Assembly (NCBI GenBank): GCA_049968235.1 | Contig: JBMFRC010000023.1 | Location: 1-52,411, forward strand | From: Candidatus Hydrogenedens sp. | GTDB taxonomy: Bacteria > Hydrogenedentota > Hydrogenedentia > Hydrogenedentales > Hydrogenedentaceae | Reading direction: 5' to 3' | DNA length: 52,411 nucleotides | Part shown: in pieces, positions 2,825-46,172 of the stretch | Layout of the letters: the number at the start of each line of letters is the position of its first letter | How positions within the stretch are numbered: position 1 is the first letter of the stretch | Translations under genes and position numbers: made by a program | The notes under the pieces: model-generated | Databases searched by the model: none | What the model saw: only the letters and a program-made list of their open reading frames with translations | What the model was told of the DNA's origin: nothing

Positions 2825-4603
2825 ATGAATAAAAACAAGCCAACAGAAGTAAAAATGGTAAATATTAAGATTGATGATAGAGAAGTTTCGGTTCCCGAAG
2901 GAACAACAATAATGGAAGCGGCAGAGAAAATAGGTATTCAGATACCCCGCCTCTGTTATCATCCTGATTTGAGTTTGCAGGGTTCCTGTCGGGTATGTAT
3001 TGTTGAAGTAAAAGGTTTTGATTTTTACATGACATCCTGTAGCACAAAGGTATGGGAAGGAATGGAAATTAAGACGAACAGTCCTGCAATTCGTCAAGCG
3101 AGACGGGATATAGTTGAATTACTTTTAGACAATCATCCACAGGATTGCCAAACATGTGAACGGGATGGGAATTGTGAACTTCAGAATTTAGCCTATTCAT
3201 TAGGAGTTCGAGAAAGATTATTTTCAGGAGAGAGAAAACATTTTCCAGAAGATAAGAAAAGTAAATCTGTGGTTCGTATTCCTGATAAATGTATTTTATG
3301 CGGGCGTTGTGTTCGCGTATGTGCGGAAGTGCAGGGTGTCTATAATTTAAGTCAGCATGGGAGAGGTTTTCACACTCAGGTTATGCCTGCCCATGGTTCT
3401 GCTATGGATGAATCTGTATGTATTCAATGTGGACAATGTATTATGGTATGTCCTGTTGCGGCGTTTATAGAGCAATCCCATACAGAGAAGGTATGGAATG
3501 CATTGGCAGACCCGAAAAAACATGTTGTTATACAAACAGCACCATCCATTCGTGCAGCAATAGGGGAGGGCTTTGGAATGGAGCCGGGAACTCCTGCCAC
3601 CGGAAAAATGGTAACTGCACTACGATTACTCGGTTTTGATGCTATCTTTGATACCAATTTTGGAGCAGATTTGACAATCGTCGAAGAAGCCACAGAATTT
3701 TTGAAAAGGATACAGAAAAAAGAACGACTTCCACTCCTAACCAGTTGTTCGCCGGGCTGGATAAACTTTTTAGAGAAGTTTTACCCAGAAATGATTCCAT
3801 TTGCTTCTACCTGTAGAAGTCCTATGAGTATGACTTCTGTTTTGTTAAAAACTTACTATGCGGAAAAGATTAAAAAAGACCCGAAAGATATTTATGTTGT
3901 GGCAGTTATGCCCTGTGTAGCGAAGAAGTTTGAAGCAGATAGGGATGAACATAAAATGCCTGATGAGATACCTTACACCGATGCCGTATTAACCACTCGT
4001 GAATTAATCTGGATGATTAAATGTTATGGTATTGACTTAAAAGATTTGCCTGATAGCGAATTTGACAATCCCTTAGGAGAATCCAGTGGAGCGGCAGATA
4101 TTTTTGGTACAACGGGAGGAGTTATGGAGGCAGCGTTACGGATGGCTTGTGAAGTTCTTACGGGATTACCACCGGAGAAGATGGAATTTACAGATGTCCG
4201 TGCTGTAGAAGGTCTGAGAGAAACTGAGGTTAAATTTGGTAATTATAGGATTAATGTTGCGGTTTCCAATGGTTTAACAAATGCCAAAACAATTCTAAAC
4301 AGAATCATATCGGGGGAGAAACAATATCATATCGTGGAAATTATGGCATGTCCGGGTGGATGTATAGGAGGAGGAGGACAGCCATATCCGCCGGAGGGTT
4401 ATCATTTCCTTGATCCGGAATTGTTAGCCAAAAGGGCACAGGCTTTGTATAAGATTGACAGTGATAAGAAAATAAGAATTTCAAACCATAATCCATCAAT
4501 TCAACAGATATACAGAGAATTTTTGGGAGCTCCAGGAAGTGAAAGGGCTCACCAATTGTTACATACACACTATCACCCCAGACTACCGAGAGGAATACGA
4601 TAA
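2825..4603 (+). CDS. hydA: [FeFe]-hydrogenase catalytic subunit (M3-type: N-terminal [2Fe-2S] ferredoxin, His-ligated [4Fe-4S], 2x[4Fe-4S], H-cluster domain)
   Basis: All three H-cluster signature motifs are present: L1 TSCSPGW, L2 MPCVAKKFEADR, L3 EIMACPGGCIGGGGQP. Accessory clusters CILCGRCVRVC and CIQCGQCIMVCP are also present. The N-terminal domain is NuoG-like, with CYHPDL...CRVC. Confidence 0.93.
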   Translation: MNKNKPTEVKMVNIKIDDREVSVPEGTTIMEAAEKIGIQIPRLCYHPDLSLQGSCRVCIVEVKGFDFYMTSCSTKVWEGMEIKTNSPAIRQARRDIVELLLDNHPQDCQTCERDGNCELQNLAYSLGVRERLFSGERKHFPEDKKSKSVVRIPDKCILCGRCVRVCAEVQGVYNLSQHGRGFHTQVMPAHGSAMDESVCIQCGQCIMVCPVAAFIEQSHTEKVWNALADPKKHVVIQTAPSIRAAIGEGFGMEPGTPATGKMVTALRLLGFDAIFDTNFGADLTIVEEATEFLKRIQKKERLPLLTSCSPGWINFLEKFYPEMIPFASTCRSPMSMTSVLLKTYYAEKIKKDPKDIYVVAVMPCVAKKFEADRDEHKMPDEIPYTDAVLTTRELIWMIKCYGIDLKDLPDSEFDNPLGESSGAADIFGTTGGVMEAALRMACEVLTGLPPEKMEFTDVRAVEGLRETEVKFGNYRINVAVSNGLTNAKTILNRIISGEKQYHIVEIMACPGGCIGGGGQPYPPEGYHFLDPELLAKRAQALYKIDSDKKIRISNHNPSIQQIYREFLGAPGSERAHQLLHTHYHPRLPRGIR

Positions 4604-34333: not shown

Positions 34334-34409
<76 letters not shown>

Positions 34410-41029: not shown

Positions 41030-41092
41030 TTGTTCCATATTGGAACATTCTAATCTATTTGAGGGATTTTTATAATCATATTAGTAAATTTT

Positions 41093-41668
41093 ATGGAAGA
41101 AATTAATAAAGAAATAAAGTTAATTAATGAATGTCTGAACGGGAATGCTGAGGCATTTCGGGATTTAGTTATGACTTATCAAACAGCAGTATATGCAACT
41201 GCATTTTACTATGTGAAGAATTCAAATATAGCAAAGGAAATTGTTCAGGAAACGTTCATTAATGCATATAAGAATCTTTACCAACTCCGTGATTTAACAA
41301 AATTTGGAAGTTGGTTAAAGGAAATTACAATTCGTATTTCTTTCCAATATATCCAGAAAAAGAAAGAAATTAGTACTGATATACAAGATGAGAGAATCAT
41401 CCCGATTAATTCCCAAAAGATAACAGGAAAGGGAGTTTCTTTATCATTTGAAGAGATAAAATTTGCTATACAACAATTACCGGAAAGATACAGACTTCCT
41501 GTAGTATTAAAATACTTAGAAGGAATGACTTACGAAGAAATCAGCAGATTTACAGGAGAATCTCCGGGCGAGATTAAAGGGATATTACAAAGAGCAGTAA
41601 AACAGTTACAGCAGATATTTGATAGTAGAGATGGAGAGACAAAGCAATGGCACGATGTTCACAAATAG
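41093..41668 (+). CDS. ECF (sigma-24 type) RNA polymerase sigma factor
   Basis: Region 2 (...VYATAFYYVKNSNIAKEIVQETFINAYKN...) and region 4 (LPERYRLPVVLKYLEGMTYEEISRFTG). Confidence 0.85.
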   Translation: MEEINKEIKLINECLNGNAEAFRDLVMTYQTAVYATAFYYVKNSNIAKEIVQETFINAYKNLYQLRDLTKFGSWLKEITIRISFQYIQKKKEISTDIQDERIIPINSQKITGKGVSLSFEEIKFAIQQLPERYRLPVVLKYLEGMTYEEISRFTGESPGEIKGILQRAVKQLQQIFDSRDGETKQWHDVHK

Positions 41669-42918
41669 AGCCTGAATTACAGGCATACATTGATGGTGAA
41701 TTAAGCAGGTCTAAAGAGTTAATTGTAGAAGAGCATTTATCTGCCTGTATGCATTGTAAACAGGAATTTGAAATCTTACGGAAAAGTAACGCATATCTGT
41801 ATGAATCTCTCAGTCCCTACAAGTTAAATGAGTCGTTAGATGAACAAATAATGAAAAAACTTCCGGAGATAGATATTAGTTACAATCAAACACATCAAAT
41901 CACACTGCGAGTTAAGCATCAAGATGAAAGCCCTTATTCATTTTCCAACATATTTCCTTATCTTGCTTTGACAGCAATGACTGTTCTGGGTGTTTTTATA
42001 TTTGTAAGTTGGCCCCATCGGGAAATTTCCGAATCACAAAAAGTTGGAATAGCGATTAATATGTCAGGTAATAGTTCGATAATTAACAATAACATAAACA
42101 ACATAATGAAAGAAGAGGACCTGACACCCATTAAAACTGATAATTATATAGAGACAAAAGAAGATTCAATAGTTTATACCTATCTAAAAGGTAATTCTAT
42201 TTTGAAGTTAGCCGAAAAGACAAGAATACGAATTTTAGATGAACGAACCGTAAATTTGGAAAAAGGGAAAGTTTTATTTGATATTGGTAAAGATAAAAAA
42301 GTGTTTCGAGTGAATACCCCGCAGGGGATTGTAACAGTATTTGGCACACAATTCCAGGTAGAAGTTGATTCTACACAAATATTAACAACAGTTCATAGGG
42401 GAGAGGTGACAGTAGAAACCGCACATCAATTTGTTGTGCTAAAGCAAAATCAACAGGTTTTATTGAAAGGCAATACTTTTGCATCGGAAGTAAAAACTTG
42501 TGATTCGAATGAAATAATTGCCTGGTCTCGTAATATAGAACCTTCGGAACGAATATTACAAAAGATATCCAATATTTTCGGGAATTCCGAATCAATACTT
42601 ATAGCGACACCTGCTTCGCAAGTATTTGTAGTTCCCACACAAATGAAAGAAATTTCGAGCCTTGTATTGTTCTGGGATAAGCAAAAGATTATTAGTAATT
42701 CTAATTTTACAATTTATGCATCTGATGATGAGTTAAAACCTTTATTCCGTTATAAGTTAACGAATAACTTACTGGAATCGTTTGATGGAGAGATTAATAT
42801 CCCTATTCCCTCAGATATATCTCTCAGAAATGTAAAAATTTTACATATAGAAATAATTTCAGATGATATAGATGCATCTTCTACAATGCCATTTACAAAG
42901 GTTTATGCAAAGAATTGA
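41647..42918 (+). CDS. Anti-sigma factor, zinc-finger (HLSACMHCK) plus TM plus FecR-like periplasmic domain with a C-terminal extension
   Basis: Overlaps the sigma gene end. Zf-HC2-like HxxxCxxC. One TM (LALTAMTVLGVFIFVSW). FecR-like beta-rich block (NTPQGIVTVFGTQFQVEV). Confidence 0.75.
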   Translation: MARCSQIEPELQAYIDGELSRSKELIVEEHLSACMHCKQEFEILRKSNAYLYESLSPYKLNESLDEQIMKKLPEIDISYNQTHQITLRVKHQDESPYSFSNIFPYLALTAMTVLGVFIFVSWPHREISESQKVGIAINMSGNSSIINNNINNIMKEEDLTPIKTDNYIETKEDSIVYTYLKGNSILKLAEKTRIRILDERTVNLEKGKVLFDIGKDKKVFRVNTPQGIVTVFGTQFQVEVDSTQILTTVHRGEVTVETAHQFVVLKQNQQVLLKGNTFASEVKTCDSNEIIAWSRNIEPSERILQKISNIFGNSESILIATPASQVFVVPTQMKEISSLVLFWDKQKIISNSNFTIYASDDELKPLFRYKLTNNLLESFDGEINIPIPSDISLRNVKILHIEIISDDIDASSTMPFTKVYAKN

Positions 42919-42959
42919 TATGAATATTCGTTTTGACATAAATAGGAATAAAAATAAAG

Positions 42960-43211
42960 CCCACCCTGTCGGGAGGCATGATGAAGCAAAAAACAAAGTC
43001 AAATTTCTGCCTCACATCACTCCTTCCCCAGAAATACCTGCAGCCAAAATAACTGCTTTCATGCATGCCTCCCGCTTAGAAATATTGATTATTCTCAGTA
43101 AAGTGGGCTCGATGATATATACGGCGAAACAACTGTCTCCTCTCTCCACTCCTTCCTCAAGAGTACCAGCCTAACAAAAAAGCCGCATCGAGCCCCTTCT
43201 CTTTTTTTCGC
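42960..43211 (+). ncRNA. Candidate structured non-coding RNA or cis-regulatory leader (unknown class) ending in an intrinsic terminator
   Basis: No plausible ORF. Local GC is visibly higher than the surroundings. Nested long-range perfect complements: GGGAGGCATG at 42972-42981 with CATGCCTCCC at 43065-43074, flanking ATGAAGCA/TGCTTTCAT. GGGCTCGATG at 43105-43114 pairs with CATCGAGCCC at 43186-43195, followed by CTTCTCTTTTTTTCGC. Two CU-rich ACTCCTTCC motifs sit in predicted loops. A TTGACA -35-like hexamer lies at 42933-42938. Confidence 0.45.
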
Positions 43212-43265
43212 TTTCTTTCGTTGTTATAATAAACAAAAAAATAAAATTTCAATAGGGGAAAATAA

Positions 43266-46172
43266 TTGAAGGGATTCAATAAAAAAATCTATATTATTTC
43301 TTTAATGTGGATATATTCTTTTTCTATTTGTTCTGTGATTTATGCACAGGGCTGGACAGAAACCTATTGGGAACAACTTGAAATATATAAAGATGATTAT
43401 GGAATTCCGCATATATTTTCTAAGGATATACGTGCGTTAGGTTTCGGTTTTGGCTATGTTCAGGCTCAGGACCACTGGGAATCGATGCTTTTATCATACC
43501 GTTTAGCTAATGGAAAATTATCCGAAGTTTTAGGAGCAGGTGAGGAAGCATCCGACCGTTTCTCTATACAGGCCGGACATAGATATTATGGGATGTTAGC
43601 CTATAATAATTGTGATTCCACAACAAGAGAATTATGCGATGGTTTTGCTGAAGGAGTAAATTCATGGATTTTAGAAAATCGTGATAAGTTACCGGAATGG
43701 GTAGATGGAATACAACCCCAAGATATTTTTTCTTTATGGCATGCGTTTATTGTTTCCCTTGCTCCAATAGATATACCTAACTTTCCCAAAAGACCTCCTG
43801 GCATAAAGACAGGATTCGCCTTTTCAATAGCTTCTGAGAAAAGCAGAGCCAATACGCCCATATTTGCCTTGAGTAGTCATCAATTTTATCAGGGACCATT
43901 TCGCTGGTATGAAGCACACCTTATATGTGGAGACTATAATGTATATGGATGCACTCTCTATGGACTGCCGATACTTATACAGGGACATTCTCTCAAACAT
44001 GCATGGGCATTAACACCCAACCAATCCGATTTTGCAGATGTTTTTATAGAGAATCCTCTATCTAATTCTGCTAGGAATACCAAATCTATGTTAAATATGT
44101 CCAATAGATCAGATGAAAAATCAATGCTATTACTTCAATATATGTCTCAAAGTGATGTTTACTATGTAAAAACTCTAAATGGATTAGAACAACGATTTGT
44201 TCCTGTACATATAACATCCAGAGGTCCACTTCTGGTTGGACCGGGAAATGAATTTTTCACATGGAAAATTGGAGGCTATGAGGATATTGGGGCGTTTTTT
44301 CAATTATGGGAAATGGGGCGTAGTAGTTCGTTAGAAAAGTTCAAACAGGCAGTATATCTTCATCAACTTCCTTGTTTTCATATTTTATATATGGATAATT
44401 CAAATCAGTCTTATTATTTTTATTCAACAAAAGTAGGATTGAGAGAACCTCCTCCCGGTTTTCCTTCTGGGGAGATGGAACAGATTCGGGATATAAACTG
44501 GACAACGCCTGTTCCATCAAAGTTTTATCCTGTGGGATGGAGATATCTGGTTTCGCCAGAATTACTCCCACACATACAAAATCCTGTAACAGGTTATATG
44601 CAAATATGTGGAGGACCACCGGATTCGATAACGGATGATATAAAAATTTCTAATCAAGATTTTTCGGCAAAGTATATAAAAGATATTGAAAATGTAGTAA
44701 GTAGGAGGATAAGAAGTGTTTTAAGAACAGATAAAAGGTCTTTAAGAGAAGTACAATCTCTGTTATTAGAGGACCTATCCTGTCTGGCTGTAGAAGTAGT
44801 ACCCCGAATATTGAATATTGCGAATAGTCATGGGCAAGAACTATCTTCATTTCATCCAGATTTACCCCTTGCTGTTCAATTATTGAATAACTGGAACTTA
44901 CGGATGACAACTGAAGGTTCTGCACCTGTTGTTTTCAATCTATGGTCTCATTTTTTTAGTAAACAATCCGGGATTATTCCAAGTATCGAAATTGAACCTT
45001 TTTACTCACTAATGAATAAAAATAAAGAAATGGAAGGACCTTGTTTAGAGGCATTAGTAAACGCGGTTCGTTATCTTAAGAATAACCGAAATAGTATAAA
45101 TATAAATTGGGGAGAAGTTCACCGTTTACAAAGAGGTGCGGAAGAGTATTCATTAGGGGGTAGTGAAATAGGAGGAAGTACTTTTTTACTATCTGAAATT
45201 CCTCCTGATACAGAACGATGGGGGCAGATTACCTATGGGATTGGTTTTGCCCTTGTAGCGAAATTAGGTAATACAATTGAATCCTATTCTGTTCAACCTT
45301 TTGGGAATTCTGAGTCTGTTCAATCTATACATTATAAAGACCAATGGGATTTATTTCGTAATCGGCAAATGAAAAGAACCCGGTTTTACCCGGAAGATAT
45401 ATACCGATTTGCTGAGCAAGGTATAGGAAGACGGTTGGTCTTTATTCCACCGGGAGGTGTGGGCGAAATTCGTTGTATAAGTAGTTCGCGAATCTTTGTA
45501 TCCATGAAAGCAATGATAGAGCCTCCTATAGAAATTCCTGAAGGTATGTTTCCTTTTTCTGTATTTATAAAACCACAATGTGTTCCTAAAGAAGCAAATG
45601 TACAGTTTGCTATCAGATTATATATTCCTAATGATATATGTGCCCCAGAAAATATTTCACAACTTTCACTTTATTATTACGATGATAGTTCTGGATGGGT
45701 TCGTTCTGAAAATCAAAATTCGGACAGTATAGGTGGTTTTATTGAGGGTATTCTTGAGAGGGCTTTTCTTTTTGTAATTTTAGGACCTAAAGAAGTAGCA
45801 ATATTAAATCCTGAAGAAACATCTGTAAGGCTGGACGGAAAACAAACAAATACGATAGGTCAAGGAATATTTTCTCCGGGATTGCCCGGTGAAATACCCA
45901 CAGCATTGAAGAAAAAGGGAAACTTCTTTTTCTCTATTCAAGGAGAGCAAAAAAATAATACATTACCTAAACCCATTGATTTACCTGTAATAAGAGATAA
46001 AAACACTTCTGATCAATTAGAACAAACAAACAACGGAGATAAAATATCCGAATCCGAAAAGCAAAAAGATAACACGAATAGAACTACAGAAAAAGACAAA
46101 AAGAAAGGTAAAATCACATCAAAAGATATTCAACCTAAACAAATCAAAAAGAATTTTTCGATAAAAAAGTAA
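43266..46172 (+). CDS. Secreted penicillin-amidase (S45, Ntn-hydrolase) family protein with a long C-terminal extension and Lys-rich tail
   Basis: Signal peptide (TTG start; alternative ATG at 43305). N-terminal DDYGIPHIF...GFGYVQAQDHWESM...RLANGKLSEVLG...ASDRF and ...DGFAEGVNSWI match the S45 alpha-subunit blocks. GPFRWYEAH...GLPILIQGHS matches the beta-subunit block after a putative Ser nucleophile. The 250-aa C-terminal extension ends KDKKKGKITSKDIQPKQIKK. Confidence 0.65.
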   Translation: MKGFNKKIYIISLMWIYSFSICSVIYAQGWTETYWEQLEIYKDDYGIPHIFSKDIRALGFGFGYVQAQDHWESMLLSYRLANGKLSEVLGAGEEASDRFSIQAGHRYYGMLAYNNCDSTTRELCDGFAEGVNSWILENRDKLPEWVDGIQPQDIFSLWHAFIVSLAPIDIPNFPKRPPGIKTGFAFSIASEKSRANTPIFALSSHQFYQGPFRWYEAHLICGDYNVYGCTLYGLPILIQGHSLKHAWALTPNQSDFADVFIENPLSNSARNTKSMLNMSNRSDEKSMLLLQYMSQSDVYYVKTLNGLEQRFVPVHITSRGPLLVGPGNEFFTWKIGGYEDIGAFFQLWEMGRSSSLEKFKQAVYLHQLPCFHILYMDNSNQSYYFYSTKVGLREPPPGFPSGEMEQIRDINWTTPVPSKFYPVGWRYLVSPELLPHIQNPVTGYMQICGGPPDSITDDIKISNQDFSAKYIKDIENVVSRRIRSVLRTDKRSLREVQSLLLEDLSCLAVEVVPRILNIANSHGQELSSFHPDLPLAVQLLNNWNLRMTTEGSAPVVFNLWSHFFSKQSGIIPSIEIEPFYSLMNKNKEMEGPCLEALVNAVRYLKNNRNSININWGEVHRLQRGAEEYSLGGSEIGGSTFLLSEIPPDTERWGQITYGIGFALVAKLGNTIESYSVQPFGNSESVQSIHYKDQWDLFRNRQMKRTRFYPEDIYRFAEQGIGRRLVFIPPGGVGEIRCISSSRIFVSMKAMIEPPIEIPEGMFPFSVFIKPQCVPKEANVQFAIRLYIPNDICAPENISQLSLYYYDDSSGWVRSENQNSDSIGGFIEGILERAFLFVILGPKEVAILNPEETSVRLDGKQTNTIGQGIFSPGLPGEIPTALKKKGNFFFSIQGEQKNNTLPKPIDLPVIRDKNTSDQLEQTNNGDKISESEKQKDNTNRTTEKDKKKGKITSKDIQPKQIKKNFSIKK

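What the first reader, a model, noticed from the sequence alone, without database searches (positions are those of the whole stretch)
42919..43265. Relatively GC-rich, highly self-complementary roughly 250-nt non-coding element between the ECF-sigma/anti-sigma pair and a secreted acylase: candidate novel structured RNA or riboswitch-like leader
The 347-nt gap has no credible ORF. The only one called (42872..43174) is low-complexity and spans the anti-sigma stop. It contains two independent long-range perfect 10-bp complements: GGGAGGCATG/CATGCCTCCC, extended by ATGAAGCA/TGCTTTCAT, and GGGCTCGATG/CATCGAGCCC. The second helix is followed immediately by a U-tract (CTTCTCTTTTTTTCGC), which is intrinsic-terminator geometry. 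Inside it sits a CGGC/GCCG sub-stem and a 56-nt pyrimidine-rich loop. A TTGACA -35-like hexamer lies about 25 nt upstream of the first helix. Two CU-rich ACTCCTTCC motifs resembling anti-Shine-Dalgarno sequence occupy predicted loops. I could not match it to SRP RNA, RNase P, tmRNA or 6S signatures. It could be a trans-acting sRNA under the adjacent ECF sigma, or a cis-acting attenuator controlling the acylase gene.
Basis: seen in the sequence. Interest (0 to 1): 0.7.

Follow-up and report, generated by a model that had tools for sequence, protein, structure and literature searches.

The report
Tandem RNA hairpins behind sigma operon
The gap holds two copies of a folded RNA unit that matches no Rfam family, is very strongly conserved, follows the same stress sigma/anti-sigma operon in every Hydrogenedentota locus examined, and most likely acts by base-pairing through a CU-rich loop.

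Summary
Window 42970-43074 (unit A) and 43105-43195 (unit B) are two tandem copies of one about 100-nt hairpin unit.

The unit is not a one-off. The same unit occurs in 2-4 tandem copies immediately 3' of the orthologous ECF sigma/anti-sigma operon, on the same strand, in every Hydrogenedentota locus examined. That includes 12 loci retrieved through the anti-sigma protein alone.

A 40-nt apical core (UCUGCCUCACGUCACUCCUUCCCCAAGAGUACCUGCAGCC) is nearly invariant while the anti-sigma protein falls to 26% identity. The outer stem covaries strongly. G.U pairs place the RNA on the + strand. No Rfam 15 family matches.

The downstream genes differ between lineages, and canonical terminators follow the arrays. 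So this is the 3' end of the sigma operon, not a leader for the acylase.

In most GC-rich lineages the sigma gene's own ribosome-binding region carries two conserved motifs, GAGGCAGA and UUGGGGAAGGA. These are exact complements of the core. This suggests RNA-level feedback on sigma translation.

That leader is absent in the window's AT-rich genus, so the target here is unknown. Function is inferred, not shown.

The parts
42970..43074 (+). Unit A: outer stem P1 (42970-42988 with 43055-43074) enclosing the conserved core.
   Evidence: Perfect 11-nt arms. CM R1 hit 42969-43084, 50.8 bits, E 7e-11. P1 covaries with L011/L012 (GGGAGAUGCGAGG/CCUCGUAUCUCCC).
43006..43045 (+). Unit A apical core TCTGCCTCACATCACTCCTTCCCCAGAAATACCTGCAGCC. 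It is the genus-specific version of the phylum-wide 40-nt core.
   Evidence: Near-invariant in alignments A4 and A5 and in 68 distinct units.
43105..43195 (+). Unit B: P1 (43105-43114 with 43186-43195), sub-stem CGGC/GCCG, and a diverged core CTGTCTCCTCTCTCCACTCCTTCCTCAAGAGTACCAGCC (43133-43171).
   Evidence: Perfect 10-nt arms. CM R1 hit 43095-43214, 33.6 bits, E 4e-6. P1 covaries in L011/L012.
43018..43027 (+). CACTCCTTCC motif of unit A (anti-Shine-Dalgarno-like, apical).
   Evidence: Exact, and one of only two copies in the window. Universal in the family.
43147..43156 (+). CACTCCTTCC motif of unit B.
43197..43208 (+). T-rich run directly after unit B P1. Probably the terminator tail of the sigma operon in this species.
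   Evidence: Read from the sequence. Present in window, L002, L004 and L009, but not in L006, L013, L011 or L012.
41093..41668 (+). ECF sigma factor gene, the first gene of the linked pair.
   Evidence: Pfam Sigma70_r2 and r4_2. An orthologue sits upstream of the array wherever the fetched sequence reaches that far.
41647..42918 (+). Anti-sigma gene (zf-HC2 + FecR). Its stop codon lies 51 nt before unit A.
   Evidence: Pfam. In every locus with upstream sequence the array follows this gene on the same strand.
43217..43234 (+). Conserved block TTCGTTGTTATAATAAAC. Probably the acylase gene's own promoter (-10 at 43225-43230). It lies outside the RNA element.
   Evidence: Conserved in the relatives' alignment A4. 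Its function is inferred.

Best explanation
The gap encodes two units of a Hydrogenedentota-specific structured RNA that matches no Rfam family. The RNA is made as the 3' part of the ECF sigma/anti-sigma operon transcript. Each unit is a long hairpin. A variable, covarying outer stem holds up a nearly invariant apical module that displays pyrimidine-rich single strands (UCUGCCUCAC and CUCCUUCCCCAA). The units most likely act as antisense regulators, possibly after processing into separate small RNAs. They would pair with purine-rich ribosome-binding regions. In most lineages the clearest partner is the sigma gene's own ribosome-binding region, which would give RNA-level feedback on sigma/anti-sigma synthesis. 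Shown: the structure, the strand, the conservation, the synteny and the complementarity. Inferred: co-transcription, pairing in vivo, and the direction of the effect (repression). In the window's AT-rich genus the sigma mRNA is nearly leaderless and lacks these sites. Here the partner is unknown, and unit B's stem plus T-run probably also ends the operon transcript.
For: Structure. Cognate P1 arms pair at -39.7 kcal/mol against -25.7 for non-cognate arms (p 8e-27). RNAalifold finds 29 pairs, 13 with compensatory changes. On 89 units 89.5% of cells are paired, 24 of 29 pairs show double changes, and there are 362 compensated cells against 104 in shuffles and 36-77 in slid controls.

Strand. The + strand is more stable in 57 of 73 units (p 1.7e-8). 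All 89 CM hits are co-oriented with the anti-sigma gene.

Family and synteny. The 40-nt core is invariant in GC-rich lineages while the anti-sigma protein is 25-32% identical. Twelve loci fetched through the anti-sigma protein alone all carry the array 40-90 nt after the stop codon.

Not a leader. Downstream genes differ, and terminators follow the arrays.

Target. GGGGAAG lies in the sigma leader in 18 of 22 lineages, against 0.8% of background windows. GAGGCA lies there in 14 of 22, against 1.8%. These motifs are the conserved islands of the leader alignment. Predicted duplexes are 7-10 bp and 9-12 bp, -13.6 to -24 kcal/mol, and the second covers the Shine-Dalgarno region 1-8 nt before AUG. 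In L041 unit 1 the stem under the loop is rebuilt (CGC/GCG) while the loop UUCCCCAA is kept.
Against: There are no expression data, so co-transcription, processing and pairing are all inferred. The sigma-leader sites are absent in the window's whole AT-rich clade. They are weak or absent in L041 and L148 and degraded in L044. Yet the core stays conserved in those lineages, so sigma-leader pairing cannot be the only constraint. An invariant 40-nt block is more than a normal sRNA seed needs and would also fit a protein partner. The two leader sites are co-linear with their complements, so a simple continuous duplex is impossible and a pseudoknot-like or two-unit complex must be assumed. The only loop/leader co-change found (L146-L148) is energetically marginal. 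No conserved target was found in the window.
Confidence: 0.5

Rival explanations
1. Protein-binding or sponge RNA. The repeated invariant 40-nt modules are binding sites for a conserved protein, such as an RNA-binding regulator or the sigma/RNA-polymerase machinery, and the array titrates or scaffolds it. This would resemble CsrB/RsmZ or 6S RNA.
For: The whole 40-nt core, not just a short seed, is invariant from 33% to 65% GC genomes. The copy number of 2-4 resembles multivalent decoys. The core stays conserved in clades that lack the sigma-leader sites.
Against: No candidate RNA-binding protein is encoded in the conserved neighbourhood (PilD, mannose-6-phosphate isomerase, sigma, anti-sigma). 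This model does not explain the exact two-site complementarity to the sigma ribosome-binding region.
Confidence: 0.25
2. Purely cis-acting 3' element. The hairpins serve only as the transcription terminator or insulator and as a 3' stabiliser of the sigma operon, or, as an attenuator or riboswitch gating read-through into the acylase.
For: In the window unit B's GC-rich P1 is followed at once by a T-run. The last units in L027 and L035 are also followed by T-runs. The acylase is downstream on the same strand throughout the AT-rich clade.
Against: A terminator or stabiliser does not need an invariant 40-nt loop sequence. The T-run is not conserved in L006, L013, L011 or L012. Several genomes have a separate canonical terminator after the array. 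Downstream genes are unrelated or on the opposite strand. A conserved TATAAT block separates the array from the acylase. No Rfam riboswitch matches.
Confidence: 0.12
3. A small protein gene. The ORF from ATG 42920 to TAA 43174 (85 codons; called as 82-102 aa genes in several assemblies) is translated, and the conservation is protein-coding.
For: The frame stays open in all eight AT-rich relatives, and an ATG directly follows the anti-sigma stop codon in six of them.
Against: Substitutions fall 78/81/101 on codon positions 1/2/3, which shows no coding bias. Unit spacing is not a multiple of 3 in L009, L011/L012 and about half of the GC-rich arrays, so the frame of later units shifts. Forty nucleotides including all would-be wobble sites are invariant while neighbouring proteins are 26% identical. 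Compensatory stem changes are an RNA signature. There is no Pfam match.
Confidence: 0.04
4. A DNA-level repeat (a REP- or MITE-like or recombination element), or an RNA from the minus strand.
For: The minus strand has a lower absolute folding energy because it is G-rich. One other assembly of the same organism breaks inside unit A.
Against: There is a single locus per window or locus, always at the same syntenic place and orientation, and nothing resembling dispersal. G.U pairs favour the + strand in 57 of 73 units. Terminators lie on the + strand. No transposase or integrase lies nearby.
Confidence: 0.04

Closest known systems
CcsR1-4 / 'cuckoo' RNAs (Rfam ar14 group) of Alphaproteobacteria
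   Same: Both are several homologous hairpin units in tandem, made from the 3' UTR of an upstream gene under a stress sigma factor. Their loops carry a C/U-rich anti-Shine-Dalgarno-like motif. CcsR units are released by RNase E (PMC8034643).
   Different: The sequence and fold differ: CACUCCUUCCCC in one long hairpin here, against CCUCCUCCC in two short hairpins. There is no Rfam hit. The upstream gene is an ECF sigma/anti-sigma pair, not a DUF1127 protein. The phylum differs. The 40-nt invariant core and the complementarity to the operon's own ribosome-binding region have no counterpart among the cuckoo features listed above.
icaR mRNA 5'-3' UTR pairing in Staphylococcus aureus
   Same: A C-rich motif (UCCCC) in the 3' UTR pairs with the Shine-Dalgarno region of the same mRNA and controls its translation (PMC3868564). 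This is the same logic as proposed here for GC-rich lineages.
   Different: icaR has a single site, no repeated structured units and no phylum-wide conservation. Here there are two co-linear sites, 2-4 units, and about 1.9 kb holding two genes between the partners. The interaction here is only predicted.
LhrC1-5 of Listeria and the UCCC-loop sRNAs of Staphylococcus (RsaE and others)
   Same: These are multicopy or sibling sRNAs induced by envelope stress. They use C/U-rich loops to occlude ribosome-binding sites (own knowledge).
   Different: They are independent genes with their own promoters and short seeds. They are unrelated in sequence and not tied to a sigma operon.
Sigma-E and Cpx envelope-stress sRNAs (MicA, RybB, MicL, CpxQ) of enterobacteria
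   Same: They form the RNA arm of an envelope-stress ECF or two-component response. MicL and CpxQ derive from within or at the 3' end of mRNAs (own knowledge).
   Different: They are single copy, Hfq-dependent and target outer-membrane or envelope protein mRNAs, and they are not encoded in the sigma operon itself. Nothing here shows Hfq or such targets.
CsrB/RsmX-Z and 6S RNA (protein-sequestering RNAs)
   Same: Both have repeated binding modules on one RNA, and copy number varies between lineages.
   Different: Their motifs are GGA loops or an open-promoter mimic. The + strand units here are pyrimidine-rich. No Rfam match.

Membership tests
Any Rfam 15 family (riboswitches, 6S, SRP, tmRNA, RNase P, known sRNAs) | Covariance-model score at or above the family's gathering threshold. 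| tested here: not met
   The whole window gives only a tRNA at 34337-34409. The permissive scan of 42700-43500 gives only chance-level snoRNA/miRNA hits with E >= 2. GC-rich members L047, L036, L053, L059 and L027 give none.
Cuckoo / CcsR (ar14) RNAs | CCUCCUCCC motif in the loops of two short hairpins per unit. | tested here: not met
   The motif here is CACUCCUUCC(C)C, in one long hairpin of about 100 nt. There is no Rfam ar14 hit.
Cuckoo / CcsR (ar14) RNAs | Adjacency to a DUF1127 gene (CIN1 context). | tested here: not met
   The upstream genes are an ECF sigma and a FecR/zf-HC2 anti-sigma.
Cuckoo / CcsR (ar14) RNAs | Tandem homologous units in the 3' UTR of the upstream gene. | tested here: met
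   There are 2-4 units starting 30-100 nt after the anti-sigma stop codon on the same strand. Co-transcription itself was not tested.
Intrinsic (Rho-independent) terminator | GC-rich stem, short loop (3-8 nt), then a U-tract, conserved in orthologues. | tested here: inconclusive
   Unit B has a 10-bp GC-rich stem followed by a T-run. But the 'loop' is 71 nt, the scan does not call it, and the T-run is missing in 4 of 7 relatives.
Riboswitch / cis-regulatory leader | A conserved aptamer upstream of, and co-oriented with, a functionally coherent set of regulated genes. | tested here: not met
   The downstream genes are unrelated, and one lies on the opposite strand. Terminators follow the array. 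What stays constant is the upstream operon.
3'UTR-5'UTR antisense control (icaR type) | A 3' UTR motif complementary to the Shine-Dalgarno region of the same transcript. | tested here: inconclusive
   Met in most GC-rich lineages (18 of 22 leaders carry GGGGAAG). Not met in the window's clade, where the sigma mRNA is nearly leaderless. Pairing in vivo cannot be tested with these tools.
The family defined here (CM R1: Hydrogenedentota sigma-operon 3' hairpin array) | Covarying P1, the apical core with CACUCCUUCC, tandem copies, and a position 3' of the orthologous anti-sigma gene on the same strand. | tested here: met
   Window hits score 50.8 and 33.6 bits. Covariation is shown, and synteny.

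The most novel reading that the evidence does not exclude
A phylum-wide RNA feedback module built into an ECF sigma/anti-sigma operon. Tandem 3'-UTR hairpins would capture the sigma gene's ribosome-binding region through two co-linear sites (UCUGCCUC:GAGGCAGA and UCCUUCCCCAA:UUGGGGAAGGA). The complex would have the topology of an intermolecular H-type pseudoknot. Each operon transcript would then carry 2-4 copies of its own translational repressor. Additional trans targets would explain why the array is retained in clades, including the window's, that have lost the sigma leader.
Probability: 0.3. Interest if true: 0.8.

Novelty: new variant of a known kind. Interest (0 to 1): 0.68.

Why it matters
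Hydrogenedentota are an uncultured phylum for which two full-text literature searches found no described regulatory RNA. This element would be a phylum-wide structured RNA family for them.

It is conserved far more strongly than the proteins around it. A 40-nt core stays the same while the neighbouring anti-sigma protein drops to 26% identity. That level of constraint usually marks an important molecular interaction.

Its fixed position behind one ECF sigma/anti-sigma operon, together with its exact complementarity to that sigma's ribosome-binding region, yields a concrete and testable model. In this model an extracytoplasmic-stress sigma factor is restrained at the RNA level, in addition to the protein-level restraint by its anti-sigma.

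It also corrects annotation. Several assemblies call a hypothetical 82-102 aa protein across this RNA.

Tried and rejected
1. Rfam at gathering and permissive thresholds, on the window and on GC-rich members: nothing.

2. Minus-strand RNA. It has a lower raw folding energy, but G.U statistics, synteny and terminators favour the + strand.

3. RNAalifold on a mixed MAFFT alignment of 72 units gave no structure, because the stem registers were misaligned. This was solved with a homogeneous subset and a covariance model.

4. The TTGACA promoter: no -10 partner and not conserved.

5. A long-range alternative pairing GCCCAC (42959)/GTGGGC (43103), which could compete with unit B's P1. It is not conserved in L011/L012 and was dropped.

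6. A trans target in the [FeFe]-hydrogenase gene (window 4099-4134, duplex -36.2 kcal/mol, better than all 28 shuffles). Orthologues L133-L135 vary freely at synonymous sites and the pairing collapses to -18 to -23 kcal/mol. Rejected as chance on purine-rich codons.

7. Recurrent predicted sites in the PilD and anti-sigma coding regions. These are conserved protein motifs that are not conserved at the nucleotide level.

8. The small-ORF reading: rejected.

9. The anti-sigma ribosome-binding site as target: only generic GGAG.

10. The first protein-alignment scan of metagenomes failed because the alignment was too divergent. It worked with a narrower alignment.

11. Literature search for Hydrogenedentes RNA motifs: none found.

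Full report
**1. The observation**

The 347-nt gap lies between a FecR/zf-HC2 anti-sigma gene (41647-42918) and a penicillin-amidase gene (43266-46172).
- Perfect inverted repeats at 42970-42980/43064-43074 and at 43105-43114/43186-43195.
- The inner CGGC/GCCG pair, and a T-run after the second helix.
- Two exact CACTCCTTCC motifs, the only two in 52 kb.
- A local GC rise to 0.42-0.50.
- Folding energies beyond all or nearly all shuffles.

A 32-nt core is shared at a spacing of 129 nt (alignment).

**2. Organism and orthologous loci**

The acylase identifies the organism as Candidatus Hydrogenedens sp.. Orthologous loci were fetched through acylase homologues of 81% to 52% identity.
- All keep the order PilD, mannose-6-phosphate isomerase, ECF sigma, anti-sigma, a gap of about 340 nt, acylase.
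- The gap is better conserved than the proteins.
- Both cores are nearly invariant. The outer stems change by compensatory substitutions, for example GGGAGGCAUG/CAUGCCUCCC in the window against GGGAGAUGCGAGG/CCUCGUAUCUCCC in L011/L012.

**3. A phylum-wide family**

An exact-pattern scan of one genome per species found the motif in many Hydrogenedentota genomes. It occurs in two, three or four tandem copies at a spacing of 108-151 nt. The single matches in other phyla lack the flanking core and are chance.

The consensus core UCUGCCUCACGUCACUCCUUCCCCAAGAGUACCUGCAGCC is identical in dozens of units, from genomes of about 50-67% GC. The window's AT-rich genus carries two derived versions.

In every locus with enough upstream sequence, the array starts 30-100 nt after the stop codon of the orthologous anti-sigma gene, on the same strand. 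The anti-sigma protein there is only 25-32% identical to the window's.

An independent check used loci fetched from metagenomes through the anti-sigma protein only. All 12 with downstream sequence carry the array in the same place.

**4. Structure and strand**

- Cognate 5' and 3' arms pair much better than arms taken from different units (-39.7 against -25.7 kcal/mol, p 8e-27). The + strand is the more stable in 57 of 73 units (p 1.7e-8), because of G.U pairs.
- RNAalifold on 25 homogeneous units gives a long P1, a GG/CC step, P2 (CUGC/GCAG) and P3 (GU-ACUC/GAGUAC) closing a 9-nt loop CUUCCCCAA. Thirteen pairs have compensatory changes.
- A covariance model built from this alignment finds 89 units in 41 sources, all co-oriented with the anti-sigma gene. 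In the window it finds only the two units: 42969-43084 at 50.8 bits and 43095-43214 at 33.6 bits.
- On that alignment 89.5% of cells pair and 24 of 29 pairs show double changes. There are 362 compensated cells, against 104 in shuffles and 36-77 when partners are slid. The alignment is fitted to the model, so these counts lean towards the structure. One search is free of that bias.
- P2 and P3 are almost invariant, so covariation can neither support nor reject them. One diverged unit (L041) has rebuilt the stem under the loop as CGC/GCG while keeping UUCCCCAA.
- No Rfam 15 family matches the window or the GC-rich members. Two literature searches found nothing for this phylum.

**5. What it is not**

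*Not a leader for the downstream gene.* The gene after the array differs between lineages: an HtrA-like protease, a PASTA protein, ZnuA, D-Tyr-tRNA deacylase, RhaT, DUF6298, FGE-sulfatase, or an ORF on the opposite strand. Strong canonical terminators follow the last unit in L114 and L042. T-runs follow the last unit in L027 and L035. In the window's clade a conserved TTCGTT..TATAAT block (43217-43234) lies between unit B and the acylase, and the T-run after unit B is missing in four of seven relatives.

*Not a protein gene.* An 85-codon frame (42920-43174) stays open and is annotated in several assemblies. However:
- substitutions show no codon-position bias (78/81/101);
- the frame of unit B shifts in L009, L011 and L012;
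- unit spacing is a multiple of three in only about half of the arrays.

*Not a dispersed repeat.* There is one locus per window or locus, always at the same place.

**6. How it may work**

The space between the anti-sigma stop codon and the first unit is too short for an obvious promoter, and terminators follow the array. The array is therefore most simply the 3' part of the sigma/anti-sigma transcript. This is inference.

A search for complements of the core gave an unexpected result.
- In most GC-rich lineages the sigma gene's own 5' leader contains GAGGCAGA (or GUGAGGCA). Then, 5-45 nt further on and 1-8 nt before the AUG, it contains UUGGGGAAGGA.
- GGGGAAG is in 18 of 22 leaders against 0.8% of background windows. 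GAGGCA is in 14 of 22 against 1.8%.
- Together with an ACAGUUGAAU block, these are the only conserved islands of an otherwise variable leader.
- They are exact complements of the unit's UCUGCCUC(AC) and of the apical UCCUUCCCCAA. Predicted duplexes are 7-10 bp and 9-12 bp, -13.6 to -24 kcal/mol.
- In the clade L021/L038/L049/L114/L042 the conserved piece is just UUGGGGAAG. That is the precise complement of the 9-nt loop and a poor Shine-Dalgarno sequence. This argues that the motif is kept for pairing rather than for the ribosome.

The two sites are co-linear with their complements. One unit binding both would give an H-type-pseudoknot topology; alternatively, two neighbouring units could each bind one site. 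Both arrangements are inference. The sigma and anti-sigma frames overlap by 22 nt, so blocking the sigma ribosome-binding site would lower both proteins.

This logic resembles the icaR 5'-3' UTR pairing (PMC3868564). The architecture resembles the tandem, 3'-UTR-derived CcsR/cuckoo RNAs with their anti-Shine-Dalgarno loops (PMC8034643).

**7. Limits**

- In the window's AT-rich clade the sigma gene has a palindrome GTTCCATATTGGAAC (41032-41046) and a TATAAT box 16 nt before the ATG. The mRNA is nearly leaderless and has no such sites. Yet both units remain strongly conserved within the clade.
- L041 and L148 also lack good sites, and L044's are degraded.
- The one lineage with a changed loop (CUUUCCCCAA, L146-L148) has a changed leader (GGGAAAG) that fits it slightly better. 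The energy difference is marginal.
- Pairing with the sigma leader is therefore a well-supported feature of most of the family, but it cannot be the only function. Other RNA targets or a protein partner must exist.
- My searches for a target in the window found only non-conserved matches on purine-rich codons of the hydrogenase and PilD genes.

**8. Verdict**

The finding is a real member, in derived form, of a phylum-wide structured RNA family that matches no Rfam family. The family forms the 3' end of a conserved ECF sigma/anti-sigma operon. The acylase-attenuator and riboswitch readings do not. The mechanism is a reasoned hypothesis that needs transcript mapping and binding or reporter tests.

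Noticed in passing
window 41032-41046 and 41071-41076: A unique perfect palindrome GTTCCATATTGGAAC lies 47 nt upstream of the ECF sigma start. It is conserved as ATGTTCCAnnnTGGAACAT in most AT-rich relatives, and TGGAAC also occurs upstream of sigma in several GC-rich loci. It is probably the autoregulated ECF -35 element or an operator. A TATAAT box 16 nt before the ATG makes the sigma mRNA nearly leaderless in this genus.
   Followed up: partly
window 43217-43234: A conserved block TTCGTTGTTATAATAAAC (TGT-TATAAT in the window) lies between unit B and the acylase. It is probably the acylase's own promoter.
   Followed up: partly
window 42920-43174: An 85-codon ORF starts one base after the anti-sigma stop codon and runs through both RNA units. 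It is annotated as a hypothetical protein of 82-102 aa in several public assemblies. There is no coding signature, so it is probably a mis-annotation.
   Followed up: yes
L001 4418-4498 (equivalent to the window after 43063): A second assembly of the same organism (GCA_049969095.1, contig JBMFPN010000247) is identical up to window 43063, inside unit A. It is then unrelated for 80 nt until the contig ends. This could be a misassembly at the tandem repeat or a real variant.
   Followed up: no
window 4099-4134: The [FeFe]-hydrogenase large-subunit gene, at the motif FGTTGGVMEAA, is complementary to unit A's core over about 19 of 21 positions (-36.2 kcal/mol, beyond 28 shuffles). The match is not conserved in three orthologues, so it is probably chance.
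   Followed up: yes
L053, L088, L126 and other sigma leaders; L027, L031, L037, L044 between the anti-sigma stop codon and unit 1: A conserved block ACAGTTGAAT marks the 5' part of GC-rich sigma leaders. In one clade it recurs just upstream of the RNA array. It could be a processing site, a transcription start region or a binding site.
   Followed up: no
L045-L049, L080: Genomes labelled 'uncultured Nitrospirales' carry the complete Hydrogenedentota-type locus, with orthologous sigma and anti-sigma genes (plus acylase in L045) and the RNA array. Their taxonomic labels are probably wrong.
   Followed up: no
L027 895-2928 and L035 917-2956 (array-oriented coordinates): In two lineages the gene right after the array is an HtrA/DegP-like protease (trypsin plus PDZ domains), a classic envelope-stress gene. 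This fits an envelope-stress role for this sigma factor.
   Followed up: partly
window 41647-41668: The sigma and anti-sigma reading frames overlap by 22 nt, which suggests translational coupling. A similar overlap (about 20 nt) is seen in most related loci.
   Followed up: no
window 34337-34409 (- strand): A tRNA gene is the only Rfam match in the whole window.
   Followed up: no
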